A stretch of 64,000 nucleotides of DNA. It comes from a virus. Taxonomy: Duplodnaviria; Heunggongvirae; Uroviricota; Caudoviricetes. This document shows positions 106 to 46,200 of this stretch, in pieces. Each line of letters starts with the position of its first letter. Within the stretch, counting starts at the first letter, position 1. The position numbers were made by a program, and so were the translations under genes. Where the stretch lies: the IMG/VR virus record IMGVR_UViG_3300037307_000307, one strand, 5' to 3'. Under the pieces are notes generated by a model that had not been told where the DNA came from, searched no databases, and was given only the letters and a program-made list of their open reading frames with translations.

Positions 106-399
106 ATGAAAATGAAAATGAAAGAAAAGAAAATTGAAATAGGAGAGATAATTACATTAAACGGTAAAGAGTATATATCGTATAATTATCATAAAGAACA
201 AATGGCCGCAAAGCCAAATGAAGTTATAAAAAAGGTCATAAAACCAAAAATAATAAGACATCCTTTAGATAAAAAGATAGCTAAAATGATTGATGAATTA
301 AGAAAATATTCTTCTAAAAGGTCAACTCCTTTATATGGAGTTGATGTTGAATGGATAGTTCTAGACGCAAAGATTAAATTATTGGAGAGCTTACAATGA
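106..399 (+). CDS. hypothetical small basic protein
   Basis: 97-aa ORF, K-rich, AT-rich codon usage consistent with neighbours; no recognisable domain. Confidence 0.4.
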   Translation: MKMKMKEKKIEIGEIITLNGKEYISYNYHKEQMAAKPNEVIKKVIKPKIIRHPLDKKIAKMIDELRKYSSKRSTPLYGVDVEWIVLDAKIKLLESLQ

Positions 400-472
400 A
401 TACTCAAGGCGCAATGCAGCGTGGGGCGGGGCCAGGTTTGGTTATGAACGGCCCGGTCGGGAGAGGCGTGGC
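397..472 (+). repeat. GC/G-rich island, family copy 1 (degenerate 5' box, G-rich body, ...ggcgtggcatgg end)
   Basis: Abrupt GC jump in AT-rich context; GGGGCGGGGCC G-runs; shares architecture with copies at 1071, 1326, 1630, 3122 and the array at 25.0-25.8 kb; abuts ATG of next gene. Confidence 0.5.
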
Positions 473-871
473 ATGGAATTAAACTTTGTTACCGACGTTA
501 TGTTAGTAATGCTTGTATCTCTATGGACTTGCATGATAATATTAATACAGATAATGAATTTTATGAGTTGGATGAAAGTTCCATATGAAATGTTTAGCAA
601 ATTATTGAATTTGTTTATTCATTCAATTTTAATATTTACTATGTGGCTTAATATAATTGTTCCAGGAACAATAGTAAGTTGGATTTTAATTGGATTTAGT
701 GCATTATTATTAATAATATATTTTATTTTATCTGGTTATCAGAGAAAGTATATTGATAGAAGAATTGACAAATTAAAAAAAGAAATCGAAAAAGAGATTG
801 AGGAACTTAGAAGATTTGAAGAATTAAATAAAATGTCAAAGAGAATAACAAAAAAATGGAAGAAGAAATAA
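473..871 (+). CDS. membrane protein (3 predicted TM helices) with charged coiled-coil C-terminus
   Basis: Hydrophobic stretches MLVMLVSLWTCMIILIQI, ILIFTMWLNIIVPGTIV, ILIGFSALLLIIYFIL, then KKEIEKEIEELRRFEEL. Confidence 0.45.
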   Translation: MELNFVTDVMLVMLVSLWTCMIILIQIMNFMSWMKVPYEMFSKLLNLFIHSILIFTMWLNIIVPGTIVSWILIGFSALLLIIYFILSGYQRKYIDRRIDKLKKEIEKEIEELRRFEELNKMSKRITKKWKKK

Positions 872-1167
872 ACATATCAGAATTGAAGCCAATAGATTCA
901 GAAGATTCGTATAGTGGTTACATTAACGAGAAATATGGTAGTAAAAGAAAATATGAAATAGATTATAAAAATTTAATATGTTGCGATTGTAAAAAGAATA
1001 AAGCAGAATTGATAAGAGGAACTTCAGATTATTTATGTGTTGATTGTTTTAAAAAATGGCTTGAAACTAGAAAGAATCCTATGGTAGGGCAAATATCCGG
1101 CCCGGTGTTGCCCGGTCAGGCGCCGTGGGGTTCGGCAAGTCAAGGTAAGGAGAAAATAAATGGATAA
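856..1167 (+). CDS. zinc-ribbon protein (CCDC...CVDC); C-terminal 28 aa are encoded by GC-island copy 2
   Basis: Two CxxC pairs; the G/P/A-rich tail (PMVGQISGPVLPGQAPWGSASQG) coincides with the GC-rich element at 1071-1150. Confidence 0.45.
   Translation: MEEEINISELKPIDSEDSYSGYINEKYGSKRKYEIDYKNLICCDCKKNKAELIRGTSDYLCVDCFKKWLETRKNPMVGQISGPVLPGQAPWGSASQGKEKING
1071..1150 (+). repeat. GC/G-rich island, family copy 2 (ends ...ggttcggcaagtcaaggtaagg)
   Basis: GC-rich, G-rich, C-poor 80-nt block with conserved GGyAAGG 3' end; lies inside the 3' end of CDS 856..1167. Confidence 0.5.
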
Positions 1168-1327: not shown

Positions 1328-1418
1328 TATTATATTTCCGGTGCGGCATATCGACTGGTAAGGCCGGTTGGGTCAGGCGGGGTAGCGTCCGGTCCGGAAC
1401 GGAAAGGCAAGGTATCAA
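1326..1418 (+). repeat. GC/G-rich island, family copy 3 (ends ...ggtccggaacggaaaggcaaggta)
   Basis: atattatatttccggtg box, G-rich body, then the conserved cggtccggaa...ggaaaggcaaggt terminus. Confidence 0.55.
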
Positions 1419-1571: not shown

Positions 1572-1629
1572 TTATACAAATTGCTTACTACTTACTAAAT
1601 AATTATTAACTTTATTTTATTTATTTTAT

Positions 1630-1716
1630 TCATATTCACGGTGGTTACGGCAGCGTATTGCTCGGTGCTGTCTGGCGCTGGGGGTCGGCGGGGCAAGGCA
1701 CTGAAAGGTAAGGAAA
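1630..1716 (+). repeat. GC/G-rich island, family copy 4 (TCATATTCAcggtgg...ggggcaaggcactgaaaggtaagg)
   Basis: Exact TCATATTCA box at 1630-1638 as in array units; G-runs; conserved 3' end; forms the spurious N-terminus of track ORF 1641..1868. Confidence 0.6.
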
Positions 1717-2236: not shown

Positions 2237-2326
2237 GAAAATGAAAAAGAAATCTTGGTTGATAAGATTTAGAGATTATATGTTTAAATGGGCAGATGAA
2301 GCCGATAAAGGATGGGGTAGTCCACC

Positions 2327-2871: not shown

Positions 2872-3126
2872 ATGATACAAACAGTTCAGACATTAGACGT
2901 GTTCGATAGAAGTAGATGTTTAGAAGTGAAATTCTTCTATGTAGAGAATACAGAAAGACAAATGAATTTTGATTCAAGTGGAATGACTTATAAAAGTGCT
3001 AGAGAATATCTAAAACAAGACGGAGAAGTCATGGGTTTAGATACACTTCCATTAAATATGGAAAGATTTGGAGTTCCGAATAACTTGAATGAATGGCTTA
3101 GAGACAGGACATATCAAATTAGATAA
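2872..3126 (+). CDS. hypothetical protein
   Basis: Preceded by aaaggaggagaaag SD; 84-aa ORF. Confidence 0.4.
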   Translation: MIQTVQTLDVFDRSRCLEVKFFYVENTERQMNFDSSGMTYKSAREYLKQDGEVMGLDTLPLNMERFGVPNNLNEWLRDRTYQIR

Positions 3127-3198
3127 TATTCGTGGTTATGCGGGGTGGAGTTCGGTAATAGTTAGGTATCGTAAGCTTCGGTCCGGAAAGGCAAGGTT
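3122..3198 (+). repeat. GC/G-rich island, family copy 5 (aatattcgtggttatgcgggg...cttcggtccggaaaggcaaggtt)
   Basis: Same box/body/terminus architecture; sits between CDS 2872..3126 and CDS 3227..3475. Confidence 0.6.
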
Positions 3199-3226
3199 TA
3201 AATAAATAAAAAACATTATAAAAACA

Positions 3227-3475: not shown

Positions 3476-3713
3476 GATTAGAATGAATAAATACGATTAT
3501 TATATTATAGCTATTGTTGTAATATGTGTATTATTATTTATGTTTTATATATTTTCAAAACCATCAGTCGGAGAAGTTAACGACAATTATTATCATATGG
3601 GCTATGTTGATTGTGAGAGAAACTATAATTTTACTTCAGATGAGATGATGTTACTAAATACTTACAGAATATATAAAATTGAAAACAAAACAATAGAGGT
3701 TGTAGTAAAATGA
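3462..3713 (+). CDS. membrane protein
   Basis: YYIIAIVVICVLLFMFYIF TM helix; overlapping start with upstream gene. Confidence 0.4.
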   Translation: MRSDEIRMNKYDYYIIAIVVICVLLFMFYIFSKPSVGEVNDNYYHMGYVDCERNYNFTSDEMMLLNTYRIYKIENKTIEVVVK

Positions 3714-3889
3714 AGAAGAATGAATTAAAAGTTACAATTGAATGTGAGATATGTAAAAATCGAGCTAATTCAAAAGATGTTTTAATATTTTCTCGTTATT
3801 GTGATAATTGTAAGGAAAGAGAGTTTTATTATTTTTGTTCAGATGGATGCTTTGCGCATTTCATAGAACATATAAGGAGAATGAAATGA
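3710..3889 (+). CDS. Cys-rich zinc-binding small protein (59 aa, not in ORF track)
   Basis: ATG 3710 overlaps previous stop; MKKNELKVTIECEICKNRANSKDVLIFSRYCDNCKEREFYYFCSDGCFAHFIEHIRRMK; stop TGA 3887-3889 overlaps the next ATG. Confidence 0.35.
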   Translation: MKKNELKVTIECEICKNRANSKDVLIFSRYCDNCKEREFYYFCSDGCFAHFIEHIRRMK

Positions 3890-4110
3890 TATTGAAAGGA
3901 ATAAAATTAGAAGGAAGAGTTAGAATATACATAATGTCTTTTGTTATGTTAGGTTTCGGAACCGCTGCATTTGAATTACCAAAACTTTGGATGAAATTTA
4001 TCGGAGTTGGAGTTTTATCTGGAACATATATTTATGCAACAACTTATGTTGCCAAGAAATTCGCTTATAAAAGAAATACTCAACACAAATGTAAGGAGGT
4101 AAAAACATAA
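3886..4110 (+). CDS. membrane protein (start at MILKGIK rather than track start 3835)
   Basis: ATGA overlap with upstream stop; IMSFVMLGFGTAAF and IGVGVLSGTYIYATTYV helices. Confidence 0.4.
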   Translation: MILKGIKLEGRVRIYIMSFVMLGFGTAAFELPKLWMKFIGVGVLSGTYIYATTYVAKKFAYKRNTQHKCKEVKT

Positions 4111-4274
4111 TGACAGACGAATTTACAGATGAATTTGTAGAAGATGTCTCCCAAGATGCTGAAGTTGACGACGAAGATTTTGACGAAGAATACGAAGATG
4201 AAGAAGAAGTATTCGACGAAGAAGTTTCCGACGATGGCAAAGTAGATTGGTGGGGCACTCCTTTTGCTTGGTAG
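4110..4274 (+). CDS. small highly acidic protein (54 aa)
   Basis: aaggaggtaaaaacataATG SD; MTDEFTDEFVEDVSQDAEVDDEDFDEEYEDEEEVFDEEVSDDGKVDWWGTPFAW. Confidence 0.4.
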   Translation: MTDEFTDEFVEDVSQDAEVDDEDFDEEYEDEEEVFDEEVSDDGKVDWWGTPFAW

Positions 4275-4591
4275 AAGACCATTATTTTTGTATCTGTCCA
4301 GAAGACGGACAGATTGAATGGTATGAATTAAATGAGGAAGAAGAACATAGTTTAGACCCTAGCAGAGTTAACTATCTAAAATCTGATGGAAATATAGCTT
4401 ATAGCAACGCCTATAAAAGATTGAAAGACAAAGAATATTTAGATATTGTATGTAGATTTTGTGAATGTCCTGTTATTCTCATACCTTTCAGTGTCTGTAA
4501 TTTGGAAGATAGAAAAAAAGTATTTAAAATGACGAAGGAAGAAAGAATAAAATACGCTGAAAGATTCGAATTACTAGATAATTTAGATTAA
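4247..4591 (+). CDS. zinc-binding protein
   Basis: CLVEDHYFCICPEDG...CRFCECP cysteine pairs. Confidence 0.4.
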   Translation: MVGHSFCLVEDHYFCICPEDGQIEWYELNEEEEHSLDPSRVNYLKSDGNIAYSNAYKRLKDKEYLDIVCRFCECPVILIPFSVCNLEDRKKVFKMTKEERIKYAERFELLDNLD

Positions 4592-4592
4592 A

Positions 4593-4952
4593 ATGAGTTA
4601 TAAAAAATACGGAATAAGCTTTGAGAAAAAAATTCATAACGGATGGGAAGAGCATCAACGTTTATTGAAAAGTAAAGACCCGAAAGCGATTACTTATGTG
4701 AAAATGTTAAAAAGTAATAGTTTCGGTCATCCTCATCCAATGGGATATTTCTATAAATGGCACTATGTTTTTACATCAAAGAAGGGAACTGTGTCTTTAA
4801 TAAAATTATTAGATTACCATCGGACCGGTGAGCATATCTGGGAGATTTTAATAGGAGATTGTAAAGATGGTAATATTGAAAGGTTTTATAAACATGAAGA
4901 TGCTTCTAAAAGAATAATAGAGATATTGAGGAATGATAGAGATGAAAAATAA
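4593..4952 (+). CDS. hypothetical protein
   Basis: 119-aa ORF, tightly coupled to neighbours. Confidence 0.4.
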   Translation: MSYKKYGISFEKKIHNGWEEHQRLLKSKDPKAITYVKMLKSNSFGHPHPMGYFYKWHYVFTSKKGTVSLIKLLDYHRTGEHIWEILIGDCKDGNIERFYKHEDASKRIIEILRNDRDEK

Positions 4953-5622
4953 AAAAGCCGAATTAAACCCGATAGCAATTGTTGTTATTATAGTATTTCT
5001 TGGTTTGATAGTGTTCTTTGCAATAAAATACGCTACATCAGAAGATGAAACTGAATTAAATGTTACTAAAATAAATGGTTCAATTTCTTCAACTGCAACT
5101 AAATATGTAAATCCTTCAACGGGAGCGGTTAATATCACTGGCGGAAAAGATTTGACAGTAAAAAGTATTGATGATATAAATTACACATTAGACCCAACGA
5201 ATAAATCTCAAGTTCTTGTTAGAGTTGTATATCCTAATAGTTCTATGACTCCGGGAGATATAATGTCTTCAAATGTAACTGAGATATGTGTGAGTGGATA
5301 TTCTGATAGTGTAAGAAGTGTCTCGGATTCATTAAGAACGCAAGTTTATGAACAATACAAATTATCTCCAGACCAACCCGAAGGAACATTTGAAGTCGAC
5401 CATTTGATACCTTTATCAATCGGTGGAAGTAACGATATTAAGAATCTATGGCCTCAGCCTAGAGACCCTAGACCTGGATATAAAGAGAAAGATGTTTTAG
5501 AGAATTATTATCATAGACAAGTATGTGCCGGTAAAATGGATTTAAGAGAGGCGCAGGCTATGATGGCACAGAATTGGTTCCAAGGATATGTAAATGCTAG
5601 AGCCGAAGGTGGAATAAAATGA
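4933..5622 (+). CDS. membrane-anchored HNH-family nuclease with sequon-rich extracytoplasmic region
   Basis: N-terminal TM IAIVVIIVFLGLIVFFAI; motif FEVDHLIPLSIGGSNDIKNLWPQP (DH..P..GG.N..NL = HNH core) and VCAGK; many N-x-T/S. Confidence 0.5.
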   Translation: MIEMKNKKAELNPIAIVVIIVFLGLIVFFAIKYATSEDETELNVTKINGSISSTATKYVNPSTGAVNITGGKDLTVKSIDDINYTLDPTNKSQVLVRVVYPNSSMTPGDIMSSNVTEICVSGYSDSVRSVSDSLRTQVYEQYKLSPDQPEGTFEVDHLIPLSIGGSNDIKNLWPQPRDPRPGYKEKDVLENYYHRQVCAGKMDLREAQAMMAQNWFQGYVNARAEGGIK

Positions 5623-13086: not shown

Positions 13087-13421
13087 TATAATTAGAATAT
13101 CTCCTTACTTATAAACATGGTTTTATTGCTCCTCTCGGTAACTCTTTTGGAAAAATGACTATATGTTTTATATGTGAACCATATTTATAAAGTATTCTAT
13201 TAGCCAAAAAGATTAAATACTACCTTATCCTTAATAAAATATGGAAGTTTGCTACAGTTTAAGTAACAGAATTATGACAACCGTAGCTGCGCCACAATAT
13301 CAGCCGGAAAAACTATCTGGCGGATTTAATTGGGTCGCATAAACTCCCATCGTTTAATTTTAAGACAGATTTTCTATCTCGGCTGACCCGAGTGGGAGAA
13401 CACACTCATTTTCGTTAACAT

Positions 13422-13450
13422 TTGCATGCGCTAATTAATAACGCATGCAA
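13422..13450. promoter_or_regulatory. perfect 9-bp inverted repeat TTGCATGCG-(11 nt AT loop)-CGCATGCAA
   Basis: Read directly; shares the CATGCGC core with the iteron-like cluster at 18180-18300. Confidence 0.4.
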
Positions 13451-13610
13451 TTTATTTTGGGCTCATAGTATAATAGTAGTATATCCGCCTTGCACGCGGA
13501 AGGCAAGAGAGCATAACTCTTTGGGTCCATTCGTCCTCAAACTTCTGTTGCGGGAAGAAGTCAGTTGCTGCAATAACTGCTGGTTAGTTCTGTTTTTGAG
13601 GACATTTTAT

Positions 13611-15586: not shown

Positions 15587-15653
15587 TGTTTTTAAACTAC
15601 GGAAAGTAAAATAATTCTATAGCACTTTTTCACTTCGAAAAAGAGGATAGACA

Positions 15654-15929
15654 ATGACTATGACAACAAATGATGAATCAAAACAAATAGACCAGAATCT
15701 CCGTTCTACTAAAGACACTTTACAATATTATAAAGATGCTAATAAAATTGTTCACATTGTTTTGAAGAATAGAAGATTTTACAATGGCTCTATATTGGAT
15801 ATTAGAGATTACATTTTAATTTTTCAAGATAATAAAATAGGTGAGGTTCCGATTCCTATTAAGGACGTTTACCTGGTCGAAATCTTCCAAGAACCCAATA
15901 GGGGCGGTGAAGAGGATGGAGACAATTAA
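15654..15929 (+). CDS. hypothetical protein
   Basis: 91-aa ORF ending 14 nt inside the next gene. Confidence 0.35.
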   Translation: MTMTTNDESKQIDQNLRSTKDTLQYYKDANKIVHIVLKNRRFYNGSILDIRDYILIFQDNKIGEVPIPIKDVYLVEIFQEPNRGGEEDGDN

Positions 15930-18708
15930 GAATTCATATCGCATCACTAAAGAAGAAAGAGATAAGATAAATAGTTTAGAAGATATTAAAAAAGATGATT
16001 ATATTTACGAGATATGTAAAAGAGAAGGAACGACATATACAAAAATTCTAGCACAATTACAAGAACCACAAGAGCTTATTGAAAAAGAGAAAATTGAAGA
16101 AGATAGAAAAGAAGAGTCTGAACATGAAATAGATATTGAAGATTTGCAACCAGTTGATTATGATAAAAGAACTTTGAAGGTAAATATACTCGACATATTT
16201 AAACCAGGAGTAGATGATATGACTTTAACTTCTAGCGGAAATTATAAAATGATATGTCCTGATTGTGGTTTACAAGGCGGAAGAACTGAAGGTTTTATTG
16301 TATATCCTGAATCTAATCAAGCTTCTTGTCACTCATCTGGAAAATGGTTTAAAGTTTTAGAAGCCTATGCTTTGAAAAAGAAATTGATTAGATGTTTAGA
16401 TGGAAGAGAACCAGGTGAAAAAGATAAAAAAGTTTTAGGTGGAGAATTATGGACGCAAACATTACTTGAATTCAAGGATGAATATGGTGTAGATAGATTT
16501 AATGATTTATGTGAAGATTGGGGAATTAAAAAAAGATTACAAATACCTGGTAAGTTCAGACTTCAATCAGCATTTGCCGATGATGCTGCAAAAATATTCT
16601 GTAGTAGAAATTTATTATTTTTAAGAGCTGAATCCGGAAATATAATAAAAATAAAAGTTACTAAAAAAGTTGATAAAGATAATGATGAAAAAATGCTTAC
16701 AATAGAGAGAGGAATTGAGGAATTAACTCCTGAAGAATTTGTGACTCTTTTAGAATTATATGTAGACCCTTATATGAAAACATATTACAAAGACGGAACA
16801 TTTCAAGAGGCTCCATATTCTATAAATAAGGAAACTGCTGGAATAACATTAGCTAGTCCTAATTTTAGATTTAAAATGCCTCCATTGGAAAGAATATTTG
16901 ATATTCAAATTCCGATTGTTCATAAAGGTAAATTAACATTTCCTAAGAAAGGATATGATAGAAGATTTGCAAGTTATCTTCCACCAAATGCTCCTAAAAT
17001 AAGGCCGAATGTATATACAGTTCAAGATGCAAAAGACTTCATTGAAGGAATATTTCAAGAATTTTGTTTTAAGGATAGAAAAGATTTCATGCACGCTCTT
17101 GCTGCATTCATAACTCCGTTCTGCAGAGGTTTATTCTCAAAGTTCTCTGTGAGAACTCCGGTATTTATCTATATGGCAAATAGAGAAAGAGCCGGTAAAG
17201 ATTATTTGGCCGGATGTACTGGTATGTTATATGAAGGAGTCGCGACAGAACAACCGCCAATATCAACAGATGAAAAGGGTGGATTTGGTAATAGTAACGA
17301 AGAATTGAGAAAGAAAATAACATCTTGTATGATTGAAGGGAAGAAAAGATTTCACTCTAGTAATAATAAAGGATTGTTAAATAATAGCGTACTAGAAAGC
17401 GCAACCACTTTGGATACATGGGAAGATAGAGTTCTTGGAAGAAATAAAACAATAAATTATCCAAATGAAATGGAATATAGTTTGTCTGGAAATATAGGTA
17501 TGAGTTTGACACCAGACCTTGTTAATAGAGCGAGAGTTATAGATTTAGAGTTGACCATAGAAGATGCTAATTCAAGAGTTTTTAAGAATCCAAGATTGCA
17601 CGCATGGATTCTTGATAATAGAGAAAGTATAATTTCTGCATTATATGCAATAGTCAAACACTGGTGGGAAAATGGGGCTAAACCTGGAAAGGTTCCTTTC
17701 ACTAGTTTTCCTGAATGGTCTGAAGTTGTTGGAGGAATAATGGAATCAGTTGGATGGGACAATCCTTGCACCAAAGATGAAGTTACAGTTATTGCGCTTG
17801 ACCAGGAAACTGATGAAATGAAAATATTGTTTGAAACAGCATATGAACAGAAACCAAATACATGGTTGAATCTTGGAGAATTGCAAGAGATAGTTGAAAA
17901 AGATGATATAATGCCGGATTTGGATTTAAAGAATAAGTCAGACCAGATAAAGTTTGGCAAATTAATTGCAAAATATGGTAATAGAATTCTATCTGATATT
18001 ACTATGTATGTTAAAGATAATAAACAAAGTCAAAGAAGAAAATACAAATTTAATAAGTCTCTACTGGCCCAAGAAGCTGATAAAGAAACTATAATTGATA
18101 AAGATAATAAAGAAAGTATAATTGATAAAAAGAATGAAGAAGTTAAAGAAAATTTGACAGAAAGTGAAAAAACTGACCAAAAAGTGCGCATGTTGCCCAT
18201 GTTTGCGCATGTTTCTACTCCGTCACATGATAGAAAATTGGAATTCATACCATACAGCGATACAAAAACATGCGCAGATATGCGCAACATGCGCACCCCC
18301 CTCACCCAGCCTGAAACATCAATTAAAACAACTATACTGAGCAAAGATGTTGTCCGGGAAGACTTGGAAAACATCCCCAAACATCCCCACCCCTCCACTT
18401 CCACTGGAAAGCCATTGGATTACTATACAAAGAAGATGGCTGTGGCCAAACAAGAAGAAATTGATAAAAGACTCAAAAAGGTCAGAAGCGAAAGAGAGCT
18501 CCAATTCTGGGAAGACCCACAGTGCGCAAGTATTGTAGCGCAATGTACAAGAGAGCAAACGCTTGAGTATGTTAAAGCCAATCCAAAGTCTTCCTATGAA
18601 AAGATTAGACTTGCACTTGGACTTGGAAGTTCAAAATGGCTGGTAGAACTTGCAAACGAAGGTTTAATAAAAAGAAACGATGATGAAAGTTGGGAGATAG
18701 TTATATAA
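15916..18708 (+). CDS. large replication protein, putative primase/helicase-like (zinc-binding N-region, degenerate P-loop-like region, C-terminal wH-like domain)
   Basis: ATG at 15916 (METIKNSY...) after ggtgaagagg; CPDCG...CHSSG zinc motif; VFIYMANRERAGKDYLAGCTG P-loop-like; stop overlaps PolB start (TAATG). Confidence 0.45.
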   Translation: METIKNSYRITKEERDKINSLEDIKKDDYIYEICKREGTTYTKILAQLQEPQELIEKEKIEEDRKEESEHEIDIEDLQPVDYDKRTLKVNILDIFKPGVDDMTLTSSGNYKMICPDCGLQGGRTEGFIVYPESNQASCHSSGKWFKVLEAYALKKKLIRCLDGREPGEKDKKVLGGELWTQTLLEFKDEYGVDRFNDLCEDWGIKKRLQIPGKFRLQSAFADDAAKIFCSRNLLFLRAESGNIIKIKVTKKVDKDNDEKMLTIERGIEELTPEEFVTLLELYVDPYMKTYYKDGTFQEAPYSINKETAGITLASPNFRFKMPPLERIFDIQIPIVHKGKLTFPKKGYDRRFASYLPPNAPKIRPNVYTVQDAKDFIEGIFQEFCFKDRKDFMHALAAFITPFCRGLFSKFSVRTPVFIYMANRERAGKDYLAGCTGMLYEGVATEQPPISTDEKGGFGNSNEELRKKITSCMIEGKKRFHSSNNKGLLNNSVLESATTLDTWEDRVLGRNKTINYPNEMEYSLSGNIGMSLTPDLVNRARVIDLELTIEDANSRVFKNPRLHAWILDNRESIISALYAIVKHWWENGAKPGKVPFTSFPEWSEVVGGIMESVGWDNPCTKDEVTVIALDQETDEMKILFETAYEQKPNTWLNLGELQEIVEKDDIMPDLDLKNKSDQIKFGKLIAKYGNRILSDITMYVKDNKQSQRRKYKFNKSLLAQEADKETIIDKDNKESIIDKKNEEVKENLTESEKTDQKVRMLPMFAHVSTPSHDRKLEFIPYSDTKTCADMRNMRTPLTQPETSIKTTILSKDVVREDLENIPKHPHPSTSTGKPLDYYTKKMAVAKQEEIDKRLKKVRSERELQFWEDPQCASIVAQCTREQTLEYVKANPKSSYEKIRLALGLGSSKWLVELANEGLIKRNDDESWEIVI
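18180..18300. promoter_or_regulatory. clustered GC-rich iteron-like repeats: 2x GCGCATGTT, then ~60 bp later inverted 2-3x (A)ACATGCGC(A)
   Basis: gtgcgcatgttgcccatgtttgcgcatgttt ... aacatgcgcagatatgcgcaacatgcgcac read directly inside the 3' part of the replication gene. Confidence 0.45.
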
Positions 18709-23090: not shown

Positions 23091-24692
23091 TCAATTGGAT
23101 TTAGACATTCCATTTATAATTTGTTTTGCAACATAATGTGCACTTCCAAATATTATTATTCCTGGAATAACCGCAATTCCCGCCCCAACAAGTACTGCTG
23201 GAGCCAACAATGTAGATGATATCGTGGCAAGAGAACCAAATCCTAATGATTCAAGCATACTGGCTGCTTCGTGGGTTTTCTTTTCAATTCCTTTTTCAAG
23301 AGCATCTATTTGCATAACTATTTTTCCGTTTTGCCATATTCTAACTTTTTTATCTTCTTCTGAAGTTAGAAAAACTTTGTTTCCATTTAGAGAAGCAGTG
23401 TATGCTGCCGAATTACCTGTAATAAATATTTTATTTTTTCTTCTAGCTATAACTGTATTATTATTATTAGTTGTTGGACAGAATACTATTCCATTGTATT
23501 TTTTCTCCTTTATCTCATTTCTAAAAACGTTACATTCATTGAATCTATTAATATTTGTTTTATAATATCCTTTTGAATCAATATATGTATTTGAATTTCT
23601 ATTTAATAAGATACAAAGTGTTTTAAAAAAATCTAGTCTTTTTTTGTTTTGAGTTCTTATATCTCCTTCCCAATTTTTATTACGTTTGTGCCCATCTCCT
23701 AACATCATTGAATTATATATCTCTTGTAATTCCTCTCCTTTTAATTCAAATATAGAATGTTTAGGTGTTCTATCAATATTAATAAAATCAAAAATCCATT
23801 TAGAATCTTTTGAGAATATTCTAAATTTACAATATCTTTTTAATTTACCATCGTAAGGTGAAAGTTGATTATATATATTCTTTGAAAATGTTAAGCCACT
23901 GGATACCAAAGTATCTTCTATTATTTTACATTTGTTTTTATTTGCTGTAAAACTTTGAACTATTTCTATAGATTTATCTCTTTTACTAATATAAGCATCA
24001 GATAAAACCCATCCTAAAATAGAAGCTTTTATTTTCCCAATACTTTTACCATTTTTTTTAAAAGAAGATAATTTATGTTTTGTTTTAATTTTTTCGGATA
24101 TTTGATTATAAGGAATTAATTTGTAATTATTATAGATAATTTTTCTGGAGTCTCCTTTTCCAATTCTCTTTCCAATCTTAACGAGCCCTTTATGTTCATT
24201 TGTTACAATGAAATCTAAAAATCTATTTTTAATATGAAAAACCTTTTCATTGATTTTATCAATGAAAATATCTTTAATCTTATCTTCCTCTATAATATCT
24301 TTTTTTAAATTATAGTTTAAGATTATATCTCCTTTGTTCAAATCTTTATATCTCTTCCAACCTTTTATTGTCAATATTTCAGTATCAGAACTTAAACAAT
24401 GTCTTGTACCATATCCTGTAAGAGTTTGAACATTTTTAATATTCATTCCATATCCAATCATTTCTCCTTGAGGATTAACAATACAAGCACCGTCGAGTAA
24501 CGCAAGTGCTTCAGCTCTTCTTTCAGAACCAATTATATTAAACTTAACAACATCTTGAGGAAACAAAGGTTCATATTCAATCGGTTTGTCCATTAGAACA
24601 ATTAAACAACCTTTGTTATTCTTTGCTATTTTTAAGCAGATATCAATTAAAGTTTTTTCAATTTCATTTGTCATAGTATATGTAAATAACAT
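23091..24692 (-). CDS. diadenylate cyclase (DAC/DisA_N domain, c-di-AMP synthase-like) interrupted by an intein; C-terminal membrane anchor
   Basis: N-extein LLDGACIVNPQGEMIGYG...LTGYGTRH | C-extein SAAYTASLNGNKVFLTSEEDKKVRIWQNG matches the DGA and GTRHRAA...VSEETG DAC signatures; C-terminal TM LATISSTLLAPAVLVGAGIAVIPGIIIFG. Confidence 0.65.
   Translation of the reverse strand: MLFTYTMTNEIEKTLIDICLKIAKNNKGCLIVLMDKPIEYEPLFPQDVVKFNIIGSERRAEALALLDGACIVNPQGEMIGYGMNIKNVQTLTGYGTRHCLSSDTEILTIKGWKRYKDLNKGDIILNYNLKKDIIEEDKIKDIFIDKINEKVFHIKNRFLDFIVTNEHKGLVKIGKRIGKGDSRKIIYNNYKLIPYNQISEKIKTKHKLSSFKKNGKSIGKIKASILGWVLSDAYISKRDKSIEIVQSFTANKNKCKIIEDTLVSSGLTFSKNIYNQLSPYDGKLKRYCKFRIFSKDSKWIFDFINIDRTPKHSIFELKGEELQEIYNSMMLGDGHKRNKNWEGDIRTQNKKRLDFFKTLCILLNRNSNTYIDSKGYYKTNINRFNECNVFRNEIKEKKYNGIVFCPTTNNNNTVIARRKNKIFITGNSAAYTASLNGNKVFLTSEEDKKVRIWQNGKIVMQIDALEKGIEKKTHEAASMLESLGFGSLATISSTLLAPAVLVGAGIAVIPGIIIFGSAHYVAKQIINGMSKSN
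23412..24398 (-). mobile_element. intein (~329 aa) with LAGLIDADG-type homing-endonuclease motifs, inserted after GTRH of the DAC motif
   Basis: Block A CLSSDTEILTIKGW directly after extein His; LAGLIDADG-like ILGWVLSDAYISKRDKS and MMLGDGHKRNKNWEGD; ends ...IFITGN followed by +1 Ser. Confidence 0.55.
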
Positions 24693-25023
24693 TTTTATAA
24701 AAAAGACAAAGTTTATATATTTAATGCTCTACATTGAAAAATGAACAAAAACAGAGCATATTTCTTATATCCTAGGCAATACCAGGTCGGGCCCTCTAGT
24801 AATATGGCCAATGGTTTCGGTAATTTCTTTGGAAATTACGCTCTGCCATCATTGAGCATCCCTGGTATTGCCACCTTCTATTCCATCAAACGTAATGGGT
24901 TTGAACACCAATTTATTCCCATAAGCGGTCACTAACTTAAAGCTACGATGCCACTGAGGTGTACGTGTTAGTGCATCACCTTATTGATGGATAAATCGCA
25001 AGTCGCTTTGCGGTTTTGTACAA

Positions 25024-25790
25024 TCATATTCAAAGCAAAGCATGGCGCGTTTAGGCAAATGTCTTGTGAGGCGATGTGAGGCAAGGTAATCATATTCACT
25101 TGGCTATCTCTGGCGGGGCAGATTCAGGATAGGACAGGCCAGGCGACGTAAGGTAAGGATTTCATATTCATTGGCGCGGCTATTTTAGGCGTGGCGCGGA
25201 CTCGTCTTGTTGGGTCTGGTAATGTAGCGCTGGGCGGAGTAAGGTTTGGTTTAAGGTTTGGCAAGGAATCATATTTATGTGGTTCGTTTTGGTCGTTCAG
25301 TGCGAGGCGCAGTCAGGAATGGTGGGGCAAGGATTCATAGTCATTCGTGACGACAGGTACTATTCGGTCCCGGACTCTTTGCGACTCTTCGGAGTGGAGA
25401 GAAATGATGGTGACCACTTAACCTGTTTCAATATCATATTTATTTGGTTAGGTAAATCTCGGAGTGGGCCTTGTCGGGCGTTGTTGGGTCGGGCAGTTGT
25501 ATCGCTAGGAGGGGTTAGGTATGCTGGGCACGGTTCAAGGTTTGGCAAGGAAATTAATTTCATATTCCTTGGTCCGTTTTGGTAAGGTCAATTTTGGTGA
25601 GGCCGCGTAATGTTTGGTGCGGGATTGCGAGGTTCTGCACGGCGGGGTTTGTTGGGGCCGAAGAAGGAAAGGTTTGAGCTAAGGCAAGGAACTCAAATTC
25701 ATATTCATTTGGTACGGTCCGGAGCCGGCGAGTTTCGGTCAGGTTAGTTGAAGTACGGAAAGGTAAGGAAATCGTATTCAAACCATGTTT
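25024..25790 (+). repeat. tandem array of ~8 GC/G-rich island units (box TCATATTCAyTTGG; variable 50-125 nt GG-periodic body; 3' (A)AGGyAAGG(A)A), same family as the 5 dispersed copies at 0.4-3.2 kb
   Basis: Boxes at 25024, 25090, 25162, 25269, 25335, 25434, 25560, 25699, 25772 (spacings 66-139 nt); GGCAAGG/GGTAAGG immediately before each box; strong G-over-C strand bias; no ORF conservation. Confidence 0.65.
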
Positions 25791-25816
25791 ATAAACATCA
25801 AAACACTAATGTTTTT

Positions 25817-27011: not shown

Positions 27012-27614
27012 ATGACAGAGAAACAATATATTTGTAAAGTATGTGGATATGAATGGAATACTAAAACTTCCATGGGTAGTAAAAAACCCAAAATGTGCGC
27101 TAATCGTAAATGCAGGTCTATTTTATGGAATAGAGGGTTGGCTGATTGTAGATTTTATGTAAATAAAAGGTACCAACAACAACCTATAAAAGCGAGATAT
27201 CTAAAAAATGGTTGTTTTATTGCATTAGGAAATCCTAGAAGTAAAGGACAAAATTATCATTCAATTAGAAGAGATGGAAAATCATGGCTTCTTCATAGAT
27301 GGATTTTTTATATTAATCATGGTTATGCCCCTATTAGTGAAGTAATGCACATATGTAATAATACAGATTGTATAAATCCTTTACATCTCAAAGCGGGCAC
27401 TCGTGAAGAAAATGAAGCTCATAAAATTATTTCTGGAAGAAGCTTAAAAGGAGAAAAAAATCCAATGTCAAAATTATCTTTTAGAGATGTCTCTAAAATA
27501 AAAAATTTATTATATAATTGTAAACGAGGGGATATTATTAAACTTGCAAAAGAATATGATGTATCTTCTGCTACAATTTCATTAATTAAATATGGAAAAA
27601 ATTGGAATGGATAA
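27012..27614 (+). CDS. HNH homing endonuclease (HNH_3-like) with N-terminal zinc ribbon and C-terminal HTH-like tail
   Basis: CKVCGYEW...C; WLLHRWIFYINHGYAPISEVMHICNNTDCINPLHLKAGTREENEAHK (H..H...N..C.NP.HL....EN). Confidence 0.6.
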   Translation: MTEKQYICKVCGYEWNTKTSMGSKKPKMCANRKCRSILWNRGLADCRFYVNKRYQQQPIKARYLKNGCFIALGNPRSKGQNYHSIRRDGKSWLLHRWIFYINHGYAPISEVMHICNNTDCINPLHLKAGTREENEAHKIISGRSLKGEKNPMSKLSFRDVSKIKNLLYNCKRGDIIKLAKEYDVSSATISLIKYGKNWNG

Positions 27615-31423: not shown

Positions 31424-31626
31424 TGATTACGGTCGTGTACATAGACGGTACAAGTGACGAATTTAAGTCAAGTAGTTACCTTTTCACAGACTTTGAAGAA
31501 TCAGATGATTGGATTTCTATAAAAGAAAATACTCGAGATTCTGATGATGATGAGTATGACAGTGATGAGGATAAAACTATCGCTGAGATTCGAAGAGACC
31601 AAATCAGAAAAATACAATATGATTGA
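31423..31626 (+). CDS. small highly acidic protein
   Basis: MITVVYIDGTSDEFKSSSYLFTDFEESDDWISIKENTRDSDDDEYDSDED; stop overlaps SPFH start (ATGATTGA). Confidence 0.4.
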   Translation: MITVVYIDGTSDEFKSSSYLFTDFEESDDWISIKENTRDSDDDEYDSDEDKTIAEIRRDQIRKIQYD

Positions 31627-32482
31627 ATTAGTATTATTAGTAATTTTAGGATTTGTAGTTCTATTTCTATTATCTGGAATAAGAATTATAAGACCTACTC
31701 AAAGAGGCCTAGTGGAAACACTTGGTAGATATACTAGCTTTAGAACTCCTGGTTTTAACTTTATAATACCTATATTTCAAAGTATGACTAAAGTTAATAT
31801 TACAGAACAGATGACTGACATTGAGCCTCAAGAAATAATTACAAAGGACAACCTTAACGCAAAAGTTGACCTTGTCGTATATTTCAAGATAAAAGCAGAT
31901 GAACAGAATGTATGTAATTCAGAATATAAAGTACAAAACGTATATTCTCAGATTGATACTCTAGCTAGAACAACTGCAAGAAATGTCATTGGAACTATGG
32001 CATTCAGAGATGTGAATAGTAAGAGAAACGAATTGAATGACAAACTCAAGACGATTCTTATTAAAGAAACTAGAGATTGGGGAGTTGAAGTTCTTAAAGT
32101 GGAAATGAAAGAAATTGTTCCACCAAAGGATGTTCAAGATACAATGAACAAGGTTATTAAAGCTGAAAATGAAAAAGATGCAGCAATCGACTTCGCAACT
32201 GCAAGGGAAACTGAAGCAGACGGTAAGAAGAGAGCAGCAATCAAAGAAGCAGAAGGACTTGCTCAAGGTAAAATTATAGTTGCTAAAGCAGAAGCTGAAA
32301 GAATAAAGTTGGTCAACGAATCAGCTAATAAATATTTCAAAGGTAATGCACAATTACTTAGAAAATATGATGTAACTGAAAACTCTTTGAAGGATAATGC
32401 AAAAATTATTCTAACAGAGAAAGGTGTCAATCCTCAACTAATAGTTGGAGAATTACCGCTTAAGAGGTCAACAGAAGCCTAA
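31619..32482 (+). CDS. SPFH/band-7 (stomatin/prohibitin-like) membrane protein
   Basis: N-terminal TM IELVLLVILGFVVLFLLSGI; RIIRPTQRGLVETLGRYTSFRTPGFNFIIP...DVQDTMNKVIKAENEKDAAIDFATARETEADGKKRAAIKEAEG matches SPFH core plus the Ala/Glu coiled-coil tail. Confidence 0.65.
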   Translation: MIELVLLVILGFVVLFLLSGIRIIRPTQRGLVETLGRYTSFRTPGFNFIIPIFQSMTKVNITEQMTDIEPQEIITKDNLNAKVDLVVYFKIKADEQNVCNSEYKVQNVYSQIDTLARTTARNVIGTMAFRDVNSKRNELNDKLKTILIKETRDWGVEVLKVEMKEIVPPKDVQDTMNKVIKAENEKDAAIDFATARETEADGKKRAAIKEAEGLAQGKIIVAKAEAERIKLVNESANKYFKGNAQLLRKYDVTENSLKDNAKIILTEKGVNPQLIVGELPLKRSTEA

Positions 32483-43205: not shown

Positions 43206-46200
43206 TTAAGGATAGAAGAATTGCATTACATACCTACCAAGTACTAGGAATAATACAAGGAAGATTGTGTTCCATATCATCATTATTATGAAGTATTTCC
43301 AGATGTCAGCGACTGATTCACCATTTCTCATCTTCACTATGAAGAATCCTGTCGATGCCGCAAGTCCTATTAATAATATCATAGCCATCAATATCAATCC
43401 AACTTGTCTACTCAACAATGTAGACCTGACCTGTTGAGCAAATGTTAAATCAACTTGAGTTTGGTCATCTACTGTAGTTATTTGAGTATCGGTGAATATG
43501 CTGTTTCCATAGTCAGTAAGTACTCCAAATATTTCATAAGGATTGAATACTGTAACAGTTCCGTTGTTTACATATTGATTCACTGGCGTGACAACGCTTC
43601 CGGATGGATTTGTATAAACTGTCTTGTTAGAACCATCGTTTATATGTACTGTGCTTCCTCCGACAGTATTTCCTTGGTTATCTCTTGTAGTAATTGTTGT
43701 TGTCCATGACCTATACAATACCGAGCTTGAATCAACTGATTCAGTTCCACTATAAGTTGTATCGTGGAATGTATTTTGTTTAGATGATGATGTCAATACA
43801 ACTCCTCCAGTTCCAAGAGCACTTGAACTCATATAGTTGTTCGAGCTATTTGAATATCTAACTTCTCCTCCAGTAGTGCTTCCTATTGTTGTAAACTTGT
43901 TATAATCTGAATAAAGAAGAGTTATTATATCAGTAGTTGTTCCAGTGAAGTTTACATTTGTATAAGTCGACCCACTTGGTCCCCATACTTGTGAACCTGA
44001 ACTTCCACCAGGAGCTGGGCCAGTATGATTCTGATATATTCCATAAGTATTGCTTGAGAATAGAACATTATTCAAATTAGCAAATGTATTCGAAGCATCC
44101 ATTTGATAAGTATAACTTATCTTTACATTATTGTAAGTTTGGCTAGTTGTATTCAATATTGTTCCATTTGAAGTTACTGTGTAATTTCCAGTTCCAATAA
44201 GTGAACCAGTTGAATTGTAAACACTTAATATTACTGGGTTTCTGAAATGATAAGCATTCGACATTGCCAATCTATATGGATTAGATGAGTTTACTCTTCC
44301 AGTTTCATTTATAACTGTCAAAGTGGATTCTGAAGTCATATACAATCCATAAACATTATTAGCTATTGTATCATTACTCATTGTCAAAGAACCATGTTGC
44401 AAGAATATACCATAGAATCCATCAATCCAACTATTTCTGATATTTGTATTTCCTCCAGTTATTCTAACTCCAGTTCCATTTGAAGTTGAAGTATAAACAT
44501 TACAATTTATTATTTGTGTATTTGGATATGATGTTGCTATGCTTATTCCATTAGCTCCGGTTGTAATAGAATGTCCTTTACAATCTATTGTAACTCCAGA
44601 AGTCTTAACATCCAAGCATACACCAGTACTCTTGTTTAGGTCTCTAATCAATGAATAAGTTCCAGGGAATGAAAGTTCTTTACATATAGAAGTATTTCCT
44701 GCACCATATTCTTTGTAGACTAATCTAGTTGGTAGGTCAGTTCTATGGTCATAAATATCCCAAGCAGTAGCATTATATGTATAAGTTCCATCAGGTACTG
44801 TAAATGCATTATAGAAGTTTTGTACATAAGAACCAGAAGTTGCTGTATAATTCTGTGTTCCATACAATCTTATAGTGATGTTCTTTATATTTGGTTCAGA
44901 CAAACTTACATTTATTGGAATATAATTAGTTGTTACTCCTCCAGCATCTTCAGGTGTTGGCGAAGTATAAGTCATATTGATTGGGGCGTTTCCAGTTATA
45001 TGTATAACTCTTGAAATCTGTGAACTTATTCTTCCAACTTTATCATAAGCCAATGCAGTTATATTATATTCTCCATCTGCCAATCCAGTCCAATTATAGA
45101 ATGAAGAAACTGTTGGAGCCCCAATAGTAACATACTCATCGTTCAAGGTTAATTGGCCATAATTCAAACCACCAGGGAAGAATGATTGACTCAAATATCC
45201 AGTATCAATCCATTGAGAAGTTGCTTTATTCTTACACTCAAGTCTGTAATTTACACTTCCAGGTGATGTGAATTGCATTAAGTATTTGAATTCCATTGTC
45301 TTACTGGTAAGATTTATACAACTTTGATTAACTATAACTACGCTAGATATTCCTCCAGAACCACTTCCTCCTGGGCCTGATACTGATTGTCCTCCAACAA
45401 GATGCATTCTTATCTCATCGTTAGTTCCGGTATAACCCGAAACAGTGTAATTTGAATAAGCAGTGTAATTAGCAGTACTAGATAATGTAGCGTTTAATGT
45501 AGCATATGTTGTTGTGTTTCCAGGATAATAGATTCCGCTTTGGCCATCATAAGTCATTCCATTATTCACTGTCCAACCAGAAGTTGCAGTTGGAGAATAG
45601 AATAGATATCCAAGTACGAAGTTCTGTGTATTACTATATCCATTATTTCCTATATTCAATATTGTAAGATTTGGATAAGTATCTTGAACTGTGACATTGG
45701 CCCATAATGCAGTATAATCATAAGCAGTTGTTAAGTTGTTTGCTGCAGGTGTTGGATTAGTGAAGCTTATCACTGGAGTTATCAAGTCTATGAATATCAA
45801 TCTTGAAGTATTAGTGCACCAGTTGTAATTATCACAAGATGTTGCGACTATTGTATGATTTCCGTCTGATAAACCAGATAATGTTCCTGCTATTGTGAAA
45901 TTACTTCCTGAAGTTACAGGATAACTTGATGCGACAGCAGCGCCAGTTACATTATAAGCTATTATTGAAAGATTCTTCAAATTAGCATCATATGTTGTAA
46001 CATTGTAGACTATGTAACTTCTATTTTGATAAGACAAATCTCCATCACTATTTGGTATGAATGATATTGTTGGAACTACGCTATCAACAAAGAAAACAAC
46101 TTCTCCTTCTGATATTCTATTAGCCAAATCAGTATAAACCAATCTCCAAGTATTTGTTCCCTGTTCTGCTGCTAGATTACTTATTCTTACAGTTCCGTTC

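What the first reader, a model, noticed from the sequence alone, without database searches (positions are those of the whole stretch)
25024..25790. Tandem array of ~8 G-rich units: a non-CRISPR repeat-spacer-like locus of unknown function
Each unit is TCATATTCAyTTGG, then a variable 50-125 nt GC-rich body with GG (often GGA/AGG) every 4-10 nt and very few CC, then (A)AGG(C/T)AAGG(A)A before the next box. The bodies differ completely in sequence but share composition and GG periodicity (for example gtGGGccttgtcGGGcgttgttGGGtcGGGcag). The conserved parts are identical to the termini of the 5 dispersed islands upstream of early genes, so the array looks like a battery of gene-less leader/sRNA modules. 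It is flanked by the intein-DAC gene and a proline-rich protein gene, and there are no cas genes. I favour a tandem sRNA or decoy array titrating a GG/GGA-binding regulator, CsrB/RsmZ-like in logic. Alternatives are a G-quadruplex-forming DNA element, promoter-like boxes each driving a short G-rich transcript, or a nested MITE cluster.
Basis: seen in the sequence. Interest (0 to 1): 0.85.

Follow-up and report, generated by a model that had tools for sequence, protein, structure and literature searches.

The report
Viral guide-RNA (VIPR vrRNA) array
The G-rich "repeat-spacer-like" block is an array of VIPR guide RNAs, a virus-encoded RNA-guided DNA-silencing system first described in 2026 preprints; what is unusual here is that the partner protein gene is not in the 64 kb window and that five more guide modules sit between early genes.

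Summary
Window 25024-25780 holds seven G-rich units plus one unrelated structured element, separated by TCATATTCA boxes. Five single units lie at 398-3199. The "GG every 4-10 nt" is a strict 5-nt register. In 180 pentamers, position 1 is G in 70%, position 2 is G in 91%, position 3 is a pyrimidine in 83%, and positions 4-5 are nearly random, giving GGY/NN. The lag-5 G autocorrelation is 0.36, against 0±0.04 in shuffles.

Arrays with the same boxes occur in about 30 viral or metagenomic contigs. In most they follow a ~180-aa protein whose profile matches the solved "SUSP1 Vipr protein" (PDB 36pp, E=2e-16) and a ParB_N-like gene. Two 2026 preprints define VIPR: a Vipr filament binds vrRNAs made of GGY/NN repeats, and the NN dinucleotides pair with DNA, skipping every third base, to silence competing mobile elements.

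One unit (A1) keeps 22/22 NN bases but only 19/33 scaffold bases in a relative with about 77% protein identity, the signature of a guide.

Caveats: no vipr or accessory gene is detectable in the window, and no target was found. It is a new member of a known kind, probably from an archaeal virus.

The parts
24712..24719 (.). TTTATATA, an archaeal-type TATA box lying between the divergent DAC gene (ATG at 24692, - strand) and a rightward start at 24741. It is the probable promoter of the transcript that runs into the array. This is an inference.
   Evidence: Read from the sequence. It lies 21 nt upstream of ATG 24741. The same motif and spacing are conserved in relative L263.
24741..25020 (+). 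Leader region upstream of the array. It has 42% GC and is either a structured RNA or a 64-codon ORF (24741-24935). Its role is unknown.
   Evidence: The RNA fold has z = -3.9 on the + strand, with 0 of 200 shuffles as good. There is a perfect 12-bp stem, 24775-24786 with 24861-24872. A core segment, GG.CCTCTAGTAATATG.CCAA.GGTTT, is conserved in L263.
25024..25089 (+). vrRNA-like unit A0: 5' box TCATATTCA, then 11 pentamers, ending GGCAA GGTAA.
25090..25161 (+). vrRNA-like unit A1: box plus 12 GGY/NN pentamers with no register slip. The NN string is TA CT GG AG CA TA CA CA GA AA (AA TT). The guide is conserved in relative L263.
   Evidence: Against L263 13189: NN 22/22 identical, scaffold 19/33 identical, P = 1.9e-4.
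25162..25268 (+). vrRNA-like unit A2: box plus 19 pentamers. It is absent from L263.
25269..25334 (+). vrRNA-like unit A3: box plus 11 pentamers. It is absent from L263.
25335..25433 (+). Non-periodic structured element (A4) embedded in the array. It begins with a degenerate box, TCATAGTCA. Its function is unknown.
   Evidence: About 90% identical to L263 while the flanking units have diverged. The outer stem ACAGGT/ACCTGT in the window is replaced by GGCAG/CTGCC in L263, and GGTC/GACC by GGCC/GGCC. The fold has z = -1.5. There is no Rfam match.
25434..25559 (+). vrRNA-like unit A5: box TCATATTTA plus 21 pentamers with 4 register slips.
25560..25698 (+). vrRNA-like unit A6: box plus 24 pentamers.
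25699..25771 (+). vrRNA-like unit A7: box plus 12 pentamers.
25772..25780 (+). Terminal box TCGTATTCA that closes the array, so n units carry n+1 boxes.
   Evidence: family D9.
25788..25795 (+). TTTATAAA, the TATA box of the downstream operon, 21 nt upstream of ATG 25817. This is an inference.
   Evidence: Read from the sequence. The same arrangement follows the array in L263.
398..482 (+). Dispersed vrRNA-like unit D1: degenerate box GAATACTCAAGG plus 14 pentamers, between two early genes.
1081..1153 (+). Dispersed unit D2: 14 pentamers. It forms the 3' end of ORF 856-1167, and its AAGGTAAGGAG end serves as the Shine-Dalgarno sequence of the next gene.
1334..1415 (+). Dispersed unit D3: 15 pentamers.
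1629..1716 (+). Dispersed unit D4: full box TTCATATTCA plus 16 pentamers.
3124..3199 (+). Dispersed unit D5: box TAATATTCG overlapping the upstream stop codon, plus 13 pentamers.

Best explanation
The locus is an array of VIPR guide RNAs (vrRNAs). Each unit is transcribed on the + strand and is presumably cut out at the conserved boxes. Processing and expression are inferred, not shown.

The mechanism is taken from the 2026 preprints on phage SUSP1 and is not shown for this clade. One small RAMP-family Vipr protomer binds each GGYNN pentamer. It buries the GGY and exposes the two variable bases. The string of NN dinucleotides then pairs with double-stranded DNA while skipping every third target base, and the bound filament blocks transcription. 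The natural targets described so far are competing phages, satellites and prophages.

The seven array units and five early-region units would therefore be twelve different guides carried by this virus, which is probably an archaeal virus. The protein partner is not encoded in the 64 kb window. It is most likely elsewhere in the genome, which may be about 110 kb if the 109,720-bp contig listed for an identical window protein is this genome, or it is supplied in trans.
For: 1. The window units consist of 11-24 tandem pentamers: G at position 1 in 70%, G at position 2 in 91%, a pyrimidine at position 3 in 83%, and positions 4-5 at 1.96 and 1.93 bits of entropy. The periodicity lies far outside shuffles. 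This matches the published vrRNA definition of 9-16 YNNGG repeats with conserved GGY and hypervariable NN (bioRxiv 10.64898/2026.04.26.720920).

2. Arrays with the same 5' box and the same AAGGYAAGGA end occur in about 30 other contigs. In 17 of them the short stretch available also encodes a ~180-aa protein. A profile of that protein family hits PDB 36pp 'SUSP1 Vipr protein' at E=2e-16 over its full length. The match includes the G-loop (GxxD[FW]RP...FGRF) and the thumb arginine. The usual gene order is vipr, a ParB_N-like gene, then the array. This is the two-gene-plus-RNA layout of VIPR loci.

3. Unit A1 and its ortholog in relative L263 share all 22 NN bases, while 14 of 33 scaffold bases differ (P=1.9e-4). 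L263 is 77% identical to the window for the one protein compared. Other pairs of units from different loci show the same bias. Information therefore resides in the NN positions, as the VIPR code requires.

4. Units are gained, lost and diverge much faster than the flanking genes, as expected of a guide repertoire.

5. A contig whose SPFH protein is 65% identical to the window's (L087) carries vipr directly followed by three such units.

6. The units have no RNA fold of their own, consistent with an RNA held extended in a protein filament (10.64898/2026.04.26.720927).
Against: - No Vipr homolog is detectable among six-frame ORFs of at least 40-45 aa in the window, in the 1.9 kb to its left (L268), or in the 14 kb of relative L263. 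This holds for hmmsearch with a 13-sequence profile and with a profile of 120 homologs, and for hhalign of ORFs of 90-450 aa. No ParB-like accessory gene is present either.
- No DNA target was found. There were zero exact 1-nt-skip matches in IMG/VR for A1, for D1, or for a guide conserved in five loci. In 1.9 Mb of local sequence, skip 1 gave no more hits than skip 0 or 2.
- Three units have 19-24 repeats, above the published 9-16.
- The conserved flanks are a 9-nt 5' box and an AAGGYAAGGA end, not the structured 3' tail with a pseudoknot described for the SUSP1 clade.
- Expression, processing, protein binding and the skip rule are untested for this clade.
- The defining papers are preprints.
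Confidence: 0.85

Rival explanations
1. Orphan vrRNA modules that work without a vipr gene of their own. Either they load onto a Vipr made by a co-resident provirus, a competitor or the host (guide parasitism), or they act as decoys that soak up a competitor's Vipr, in the way phage anti-CRISPR RNAs mimic repeats.
For: No vipr or vap was found in 64 kb plus 1.9 kb, or in the 14 kb around the orthologous array of L263. In most other loci vipr lies within about 1 kb of the array. The published description places vrRNAs in the intergenic regions flanking vipr.
Against: Perhaps 40% of the genome is unseen: a 109,720-bp contig is listed for an identical window protein. In L155 vipr lies 3 kb from its array. 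In L012 a doublet of units lies about 2.5 kb upstream of vipr, so units at a distance from vipr do occur. Conservation of NN rather than GGY in A1 argues against a pure protein sponge, though it is compatible with guide parasitism.
Confidence: 0.12
2. A CsrB/RsmZ-like or TRAP-like sponge. The periodic GG motifs would titrate an RNA-binding regulator, with no sequence-specific targeting.
For: There are many closely spaced G-rich motifs on one strand in a non-coding array. A 5-nt register resembles the (G/U)AG-NN sites of TRAP. This resemblance comes from my own knowledge, not from a test.
Against: GGA makes up 19 of 180 triplets, and there is no hairpin presentation. The repeated triplet is GGY, not (G/U)AG. 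The NN positions are conserved while the scaffold drifts. The associated protein in relatives is a RAMP homologous to Vipr.
Confidence: 0.02
3. A DNA-level element: G-quadruplex-forming or R-loop-forming DNA, a replication origin, ParB-binding centromere repeats, or a cluster of small mobile elements.
For: The locus has strong G skew and sits at a divergent intergenic region. A ParB_N-like gene lies next to arrays in relatives. Units are gained and lost between relatives.
Against: Only one G per pentamer is near-invariant, so four runs of G3 are rare. All units are co-oriented with the neighbouring genes, and none lies on the - strand. There are no terminal inverted repeats or target duplications. 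The window has no ParB. The position-specific pattern of selection has no explanation at the DNA-structure level.
Confidence: 0.01

Closest known systems
VIPR (Viral Interference Programmable Repeat) systems, as in Escherichia phage SUSP1 and a Pseudomonas fulva prophage (bioRxiv 10.64898/2026.04.26.720920 and 10.64898/2026.04.26.720927)
   Same: Both have tandem GGY/NN pentamer tracts about 55-120 nt long, arranged head to tail in non-coding arrays of viral genomes, with single copies elsewhere in the genome. GGY is conserved and NN is hypervariable. In box-matched relatives the arrays sit beside a ~20-kDa RAMP homologous to SUSP1 Vipr and a DNA-binding-type accessory gene.
   Different: In the window no vipr or vap is detectable within 64 kb. 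The flanks are a 9-nt 5' box (TCATATTCA) and an AAGGYAAGGA end, not a structured 3' tail. Across the whole clade the first G is relaxed (G 50%, T 27%, A 18%). Some tracts have 19-24 repeats. Five modules lie between early genes, often starting at the upstream stop codon. The host is probably an archaeon. Which of the seven published types this clade belongs to could not be determined, because no supplementary tables were available.
CRISPR arrays and class 1 crRNAs
   Same: Conserved short sequences alternate with variable guide segments. There are n+1 boxes for n units. The guide is held by a filament of RAMP proteins with periodic flipped bases. This last point is from the preprints and from my own knowledge.
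   Different: There are no cas genes and no long identical repeats, and the spacing between the two half-boxes varies from 0 to 9 nt. The 'spacer' is itself a 5-nt periodic scaffold. The code is non-contiguous. No acquisition machinery is present.
CsrB/RsmZ sponge RNAs
   Same: Both are non-coding RNAs with many G-rich protein-binding motifs.
   Different: The motif is GGY, not GGA in hairpin loops. The spacing is a strict 5 nt. The variable bases, not the motifs, are what is conserved between orthologs.
TRAP-binding sites in Bacillus trp leaders
   Same: Both show a roughly 5-nt register of a conserved triplet plus a 2-nt spacer, with 9-11 or more repeats and one protein subunit per repeat.
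   Different: The triplet differs (GGY against (G/U)AG). The protein family differs. In TRAP sites the spacers carry no information.

Membership tests
VIPR vrRNA array | RNA-coding tracts made of tandem pentanucleotide GGY/NN (YNNGG) repeats, 9-16 per vrRNA | tested here: met
   There are 12 units with 11-24 pentamers each and few register slips. The lag-5 G autocorrelation is 0.36-0.39 against 0±0.04 in shuffles. Three units exceed 16 repeats.
VIPR vrRNA array | GGY positions conserved and NN positions hypervariable across units | tested here: met
   In the window alone, G is 0.70 at position 1 and 0.91 at position 2, and Y is 0.83 at position 3. The entropy of positions 4 and 5 is 1.96 and 1.93 bits. 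The same holds in 158 units from 30 loci.
VIPR vrRNA array | Specificity resides in the NN dinucleotides | tested here: met
   This was tested indirectly. Ortholog pair A1 and L263_13189 share NN at 22/22 and scaffold at 19/33, P=1.9e-4. Several pairs from different loci also have higher NN identity than scaffold identity. Only one orthologous pair involves the window.
VIPR vrRNA array | Invariant handle or tail attached to each repeat tract | tested here: met
   A 5' box T(C/T)ATA(T/A)T(C/T)A and a 3' AAGGYAAGGA are found in the window and in all related arrays. The form differs from the structured 3' tail of the SUSP1 clade.
VIPR system | A vipr gene (small RAMP with RRM core, G-loop and thumb) in the locus | tested here: not met
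   There is no hit in six-frame ORFs of at least 40-45 aa in the window, L267/L268 (1.9 kb to the left) or L263. The best hmmsearch E-value is 0.5. The highest hhalign probability, for ORFs of 90-450 aa, is 3.3%. The feature is met in 17 loci that carry the same boxes, where the profile hits PDB 36pp Vipr at E=2e-16. The rest of the window's genome could not be read.
VIPR system | An accessory vap gene next to vipr | tested here: not met
   No ParB_N-like gene is found in the window. Relatives have a ParB_N-like gene (phrog_1033) between vipr and the array.
VIPR system | Unit-length small RNAs that co-purify with Vipr | not testable with these tools
   This needs small-RNA sequencing or a pull-down.
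VIPR system | DNA targets matching the NN string with a 1-nt skip, typically in competing mobile elements | tested here: inconclusive
   There were zero exact matches in IMG/VR for A1, for D1 and for a guide shared by five loci. There was no excess of skip 1 in 1.9 Mb of local sequence. The relevant viruses are barely sampled, and only exact matches could be searched.
CRISPR array | Near-identical direct repeats of 23-50 nt separating unrelated spacers, with cas genes nearby | tested here: not met
   The conserved junction is two short half-boxes with a 0-9 nt variable gap. Rfam gave only a chance CRISPR-DR hit outside the array. No cas domains were found in the neighbouring ORFs scanned.
CsrB/RsmZ-type sponge RNA | Multiple GGA motifs presented in hairpin loops | tested here: not met
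   GGA makes up 19 of 180 triplets. Unit folds are no better than shuffles, with a mean z of about -0.4. There is no Rfam match.
G-quadruplex element | Four or more runs of at least 3 G within about 30 nt | tested here: not met
   The constraint is one near-invariant G per pentamer plus a preceding G in 70%. Canonical G3 x4 motifs occur in only a few units.

The most novel reading that the evidence does not exclude
The virus carries twelve guide modules but no Vipr of its own. It would use a Vipr filament protein supplied by another element in the same cell, or redirect a rival's Vipr. Alternatively, the five modules threaded through its early operon could be released from early mRNAs to time the virus's own or the host's gene expression. 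Either would be a guide-only lifestyle not described for VIPR.
Probability: 0.15. Interest if true: 0.8.

Novelty: new member of a known kind. Interest (0 to 1): 0.6.

Why it matters
VIPR is a newly reported mode of RNA-guided DNA recognition, proposed to be ancestral to CRISPR effector proteins. This window adds a divergent clade, probably from archaeal viruses, with a simple box-tract-box architecture. It contributes three things.
- An independent, purely comparative confirmation that the NN positions carry the information.
- A guide (A1) conserved across two viruses, whose predicted target pattern can be tested directly.
- Layouts not reported in the preprint text that was available: an array with no vipr within 64 kb, single modules placed between early genes, and, in relatives, tRNA genes embedded in the array.

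These bear on how vrRNAs are made, how far guides can be separated from their protein, and how repertoires turn over.

Tried and rejected
Searches that gave nothing:
- Rfam at gathering threshold gave only tRNAs, and at E≤10 only chance hits.
- Megablast of 12 kb against INPHARED phages found no match.
- Tandem Repeats Finder does not see the array, because the units are too divergent.

Explanations rejected:
- RNA structure of the units: z-scores are about 0.
- Coding: there is no continuous ORF, a 5-nt period is incompatible with codons, and box-to-box lengths show no preference modulo 3 or 5.
- Sigma-70 or archaeal TATA promoters at each box: in relatives the box abuts the 5' end of tRNA-Ile and upstream stop codons.
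- Archaeal histone positioning or 30-bp quantisation of unit length: the length distribution is unimodal at about 65-77 nt.
- Chi-like sites, Rho rut sites on the opposite strand, pause-site arrays and Shine-Dalgarno sponges: these were considered before the Vipr link and were dropped once the RAMP homology and NN conservation were found.
- The DAC-like neighbour as a hidden Vipr: it has the DGA and RH(R/S) motifs of diadenylate cyclases, plus an intein.

Attempts that failed:
- Target searches and a search for more copies of the A4 element found nothing.
- Attempts to reach the rest of the genome through exact-protein look-ups gave only 1.9 kb on the left and 0.5 kb on the right.

Full report
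OBSERVATION

Window 25024-25780 lies between a leftward DAC-like gene that carries an intein (23091-24692) and a rightward operon. Its GC content is 43-57% and its GC skew is +0.2 to +0.47, in a genome of about 30% GC.

Boxes of the form TCATATTCA start at 25024, 25090, 25162, 25269, 25335, 25434, 25560, 25699 and 25772. Most are preceded by AAGG(Y)AAGG(A). AAGGYAAGG occurs nine times in the window and never on the minus strand. The five islands in the early region (about 398-482, 1081-1153, 1334-1415, 1629-1716, 3124-3199) have the same two ends.

The bodies are not loosely G-rich. They are tandem pentamers. Spacings between successive G runs are 5, 10 or 15 nt far more often than any other value. 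When units are aligned from the 5' box, the G phase stays coherent for at least 50 nt.

In the window's 12 units there are 180 pentamers. Position 1 is G in 70%, position 2 is G in 91%, and position 3 is a pyrimidine in 83%. Positions 4 and 5 are almost random, at 1.96 and 1.93 bits.

The lag-5 autocorrelation of G is 0.36 in the array and 0.39 in the islands. In 1000 dinucleotide-preserving shuffles it is 0.00±0.04, with a maximum of 0.16. Control regions give about 0. A detector for such tracts finds them nowhere else in the window on either strand.

The units do not fold better than shuffled sequence. There is no continuous ORF. One "unit", 25335-25433, is not periodic. It is a separate structured element.

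RELATIVES

A pattern scan for the junction found the same architecture in two IMG/VR contigs. A two-box pattern found it in about 28 metagenome contigs and in one GTDB contig, binned as "archaeon isolate CSMAG_2753". The remaining hits were chance matches in coding DNA.

In these loci the units always point the same way as the neighbouring genes. The 5' box often starts at or overlaps the stop codon of the upstream gene. Genes, or in one virus tRNA-Asp and tRNA-Ile, can sit between units directly after a box.

Clustering of the ORFs showed that most arrays follow two conserved genes. One is ParB_N-like (phrog_1033). The other is a ~180-aa protein of phrog_4652 with no known function.

IDENTIFICATION

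A profile of the ~180-aa family (alignment A1) matches one solved structure, PDB 36pp "SUSP1 Vipr protein". The match has E=2e-16 over the full length and includes the C-terminal G-loop and the thumb arginine.

The literature search led to two 2026 bioRxiv preprints. [quoted passage not shown]
- They are encoded by phages and archaeal viruses.
- A ~20-kDa ancestral RAMP protein, Vipr, polymerises on vrRNAs, one protomer per repeat.
- vrRNAs are made of 9-16 YNNGG (GGY/NN) repeats and carry a conserved tail.
- Vipr sequesters the GGY and exposes the NN.
- The NN string pairs with double-stranded DNA while skipping every third base, and this represses transcription.
- Natural targets are satellites, prophages and other VIPR systems.
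- There are seven types, with variable array layouts and DNA-binding or nuclease accessory (vap) genes.

The window's units fit the RNA definition position by position. The box-matched relatives show the vipr, vap, array layout.

AN INDEPENDENT TEST OF THE CODE

A look-up by exact protein sequence gave a relative, L263, that is 77% identical for the protein used. It has the orthologous locus: DAC gene, TATA box, leader, array, TATA box, next gene.

Its array has different numbers of units, and most bodies are unrelated. The window has two units between A1 and A4 that L263 lacks, and two more at the end.

Window unit A1 has a clear ortholog in L263. All 22 NN bases are identical, while 14 of the 33 scaffold bases differ. 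If substitutions fell at random, the probability that all of them would land in the scaffold is 1.9e-4. Several pairs of units from unrelated loci show the same bias.

This is what a guide under selection for its target looks like. It argues against a mere protein sponge.

WHAT DOES NOT FIT

The window has no detectable vipr and no ParB-like gene. Searches used a 13-sequence profile, a profile of 120 homologs, and profile-sequence comparison with hhalign. The same negative result holds for the 1.9 kb to the left of the window and for the 14 kb of L263.

By contrast, a contig whose SPFH protein is 65% identical to the window's carries vipr immediately followed by three units (L087). The database lists a 109,720-bp contig for an identical window protein. 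If that contig is this genome, about 40% of it is unseen, and I could not reach it.

No target was found with the 1-nt-skip rule, neither in IMG/VR (exact matches only) nor in the 1.9 Mb of sequence held locally. Given how poorly these viruses are sampled, this is uninformative.

Differences from the SUSP1 clade are these:
- a short 5' box and an AAGGYAAGGA end, instead of a structured 3' tail;
- a relaxed first G across the clade as a whole;
- tracts of up to 24 repeats.

MECHANISM, SHOWN AND INFERRED

Shown here: the repeat grammar, its significance, its family-wide association with a Vipr homolog, and NN-specific conservation.

Taken from the preprints: filament assembly, the gapped pairing rule, and transcriptional silencing of rival elements.

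Inferred:
- The array is transcribed rightward from the TTTATATA box at 24712-24719, through the 24741-25020 leader.
- The dispersed units are released from early polycistronic mRNAs.
- Cleavage occurs in or near the boxes.
- The cognate Vipr is encoded outside the window.

HOST

TATA boxes lie 21 nt upstream of the first ATG on both sides of the array (24712-24719 and 25788-25795). The same is true in L263. One related contig is binned in an archaeal MAG. The tRNA-Gln D-arm looks archaeal to my eye; this is my own knowledge and was not tested. An archaeal virus is likely but not proven.

VERDICT

This is a genuine and striking element. It is a new member of the recently described VIPR kind. 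The open question specific to this genome is where its Vipr comes from.

Noticed in passing
window 25335-25433: A non-periodic element of about 99 nt sits inside the array. It is about 90% identical to relative L263 while the neighbouring units have diverged. Two stems are kept through different sequences (ACAGGT/ACCTGT against GGCAG/CTGCC, and GGTC/GACC against GGCC/GGCC), and there is a UUCG-capped hairpin. It has no Rfam match. It could be a processing element or an unrelated small RNA.
   Followed up: partly
window 24741-25020: The leader between the DAC gene and the array has 42% GC, a fold with z=-3.9 and a 12-bp perfect stem. It can also be read as a leaderless 64-codon ORF. Only a core of about 30 nt is conserved in L263. 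Whether it is RNA or protein was not resolved.
   Followed up: partly
L010 1-700 and L012 12430-12764 (IMGVR_UViG_3300017963_000309): Here the vrRNA-type units are interleaved with tRNA-Asp and tRNA-Ile genes. The 5' end of tRNA-Ile abuts a TCATATTCA box. This is a natural tRNA-guide array, so RNase P and RNase Z could release the guides. The contig breaks inside the array at both ends.
   Followed up: partly
L091 (Ga0255052_10001137), minus strand, about 900-4300 in reverse-complement coordinates: More than 20 units occur in several blocks, separated by a ParB_N-like gene, small ORFs and a tyrosine-recombinase-like gene. Guide modules and genes look shuffled like cassettes, each gene starting after a 5' box.
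   Followed up: no
window 24712-24719 and 25788-25795: TTTATATA and TTTATAAA each lie 21 nt upstream of an ATG, with no Shine-Dalgarno sequence in between. This is the pattern of archaeal leaderless promoters. Internal genes use AAGGAGG. It suggests an archaeal virus.
   Followed up: partly
window 15651-15926 (+): A 91-aa all-beta-looking protein lies just upstream of the primase-polymerase gene. It is one of the few proteins shared between the window and other array-bearing viruses (L013, L046, L068, L081, L091). Its sequence pattern resembles Sm/Hfq-like barrels, which is my own impression. It has no Pfam or PHROG hit.
   Followed up: partly
window 31544-32482; L087 1644-2501; L010 1060-2403: An SPFH/Band 7 protein gene lies just downstream of the VIPR array in two other viruses. 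It is present in the window, 65% identical to L087, but there it has no vipr or array upstream.
   Followed up: no
window 18185-18214 and 18267-18295; also 13415-13450: Three tandem copies of TGCGCATGT(T) face three copies of the reverse complement about 55 nt away, inside or at the end of the primase-polymerase ORF. A related GCATGCGC...GCGCATGC inverted repeat lies upstream of the tRNA cluster. These could be protein-binding sites or an origin.
   Followed up: no
window 13200-13530: A GC-richer non-coding stretch lies upstream of the tRNA genes. Rfam calls a fourth tRNA at 13459-13529 that ARAGORN does not report. The 13200-13450 part looks structured but was not analysed.
   Followed up: no
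window 43206-62846 (-): A single 6546-aa ORF has several Laminin_G_3, DUF2341 and Big_13 domains and a Hint/intein-like module at about residues 2140-2280. Together with the intein in the DAC gene, the genome is rich in Hint elements and HNH endonucleases (4933-5622, 27012-27614).
   Followed up: no
window 1081-1167: Unit D2 is read through by ORF 856-1167 and supplies its last ~29 codons. Its AAGGTAAGGAG end is placed as the Shine-Dalgarno sequence of the next gene (ATG at 1160). Guide modules can therefore overlap coding and translation signals.
   Followed up: no
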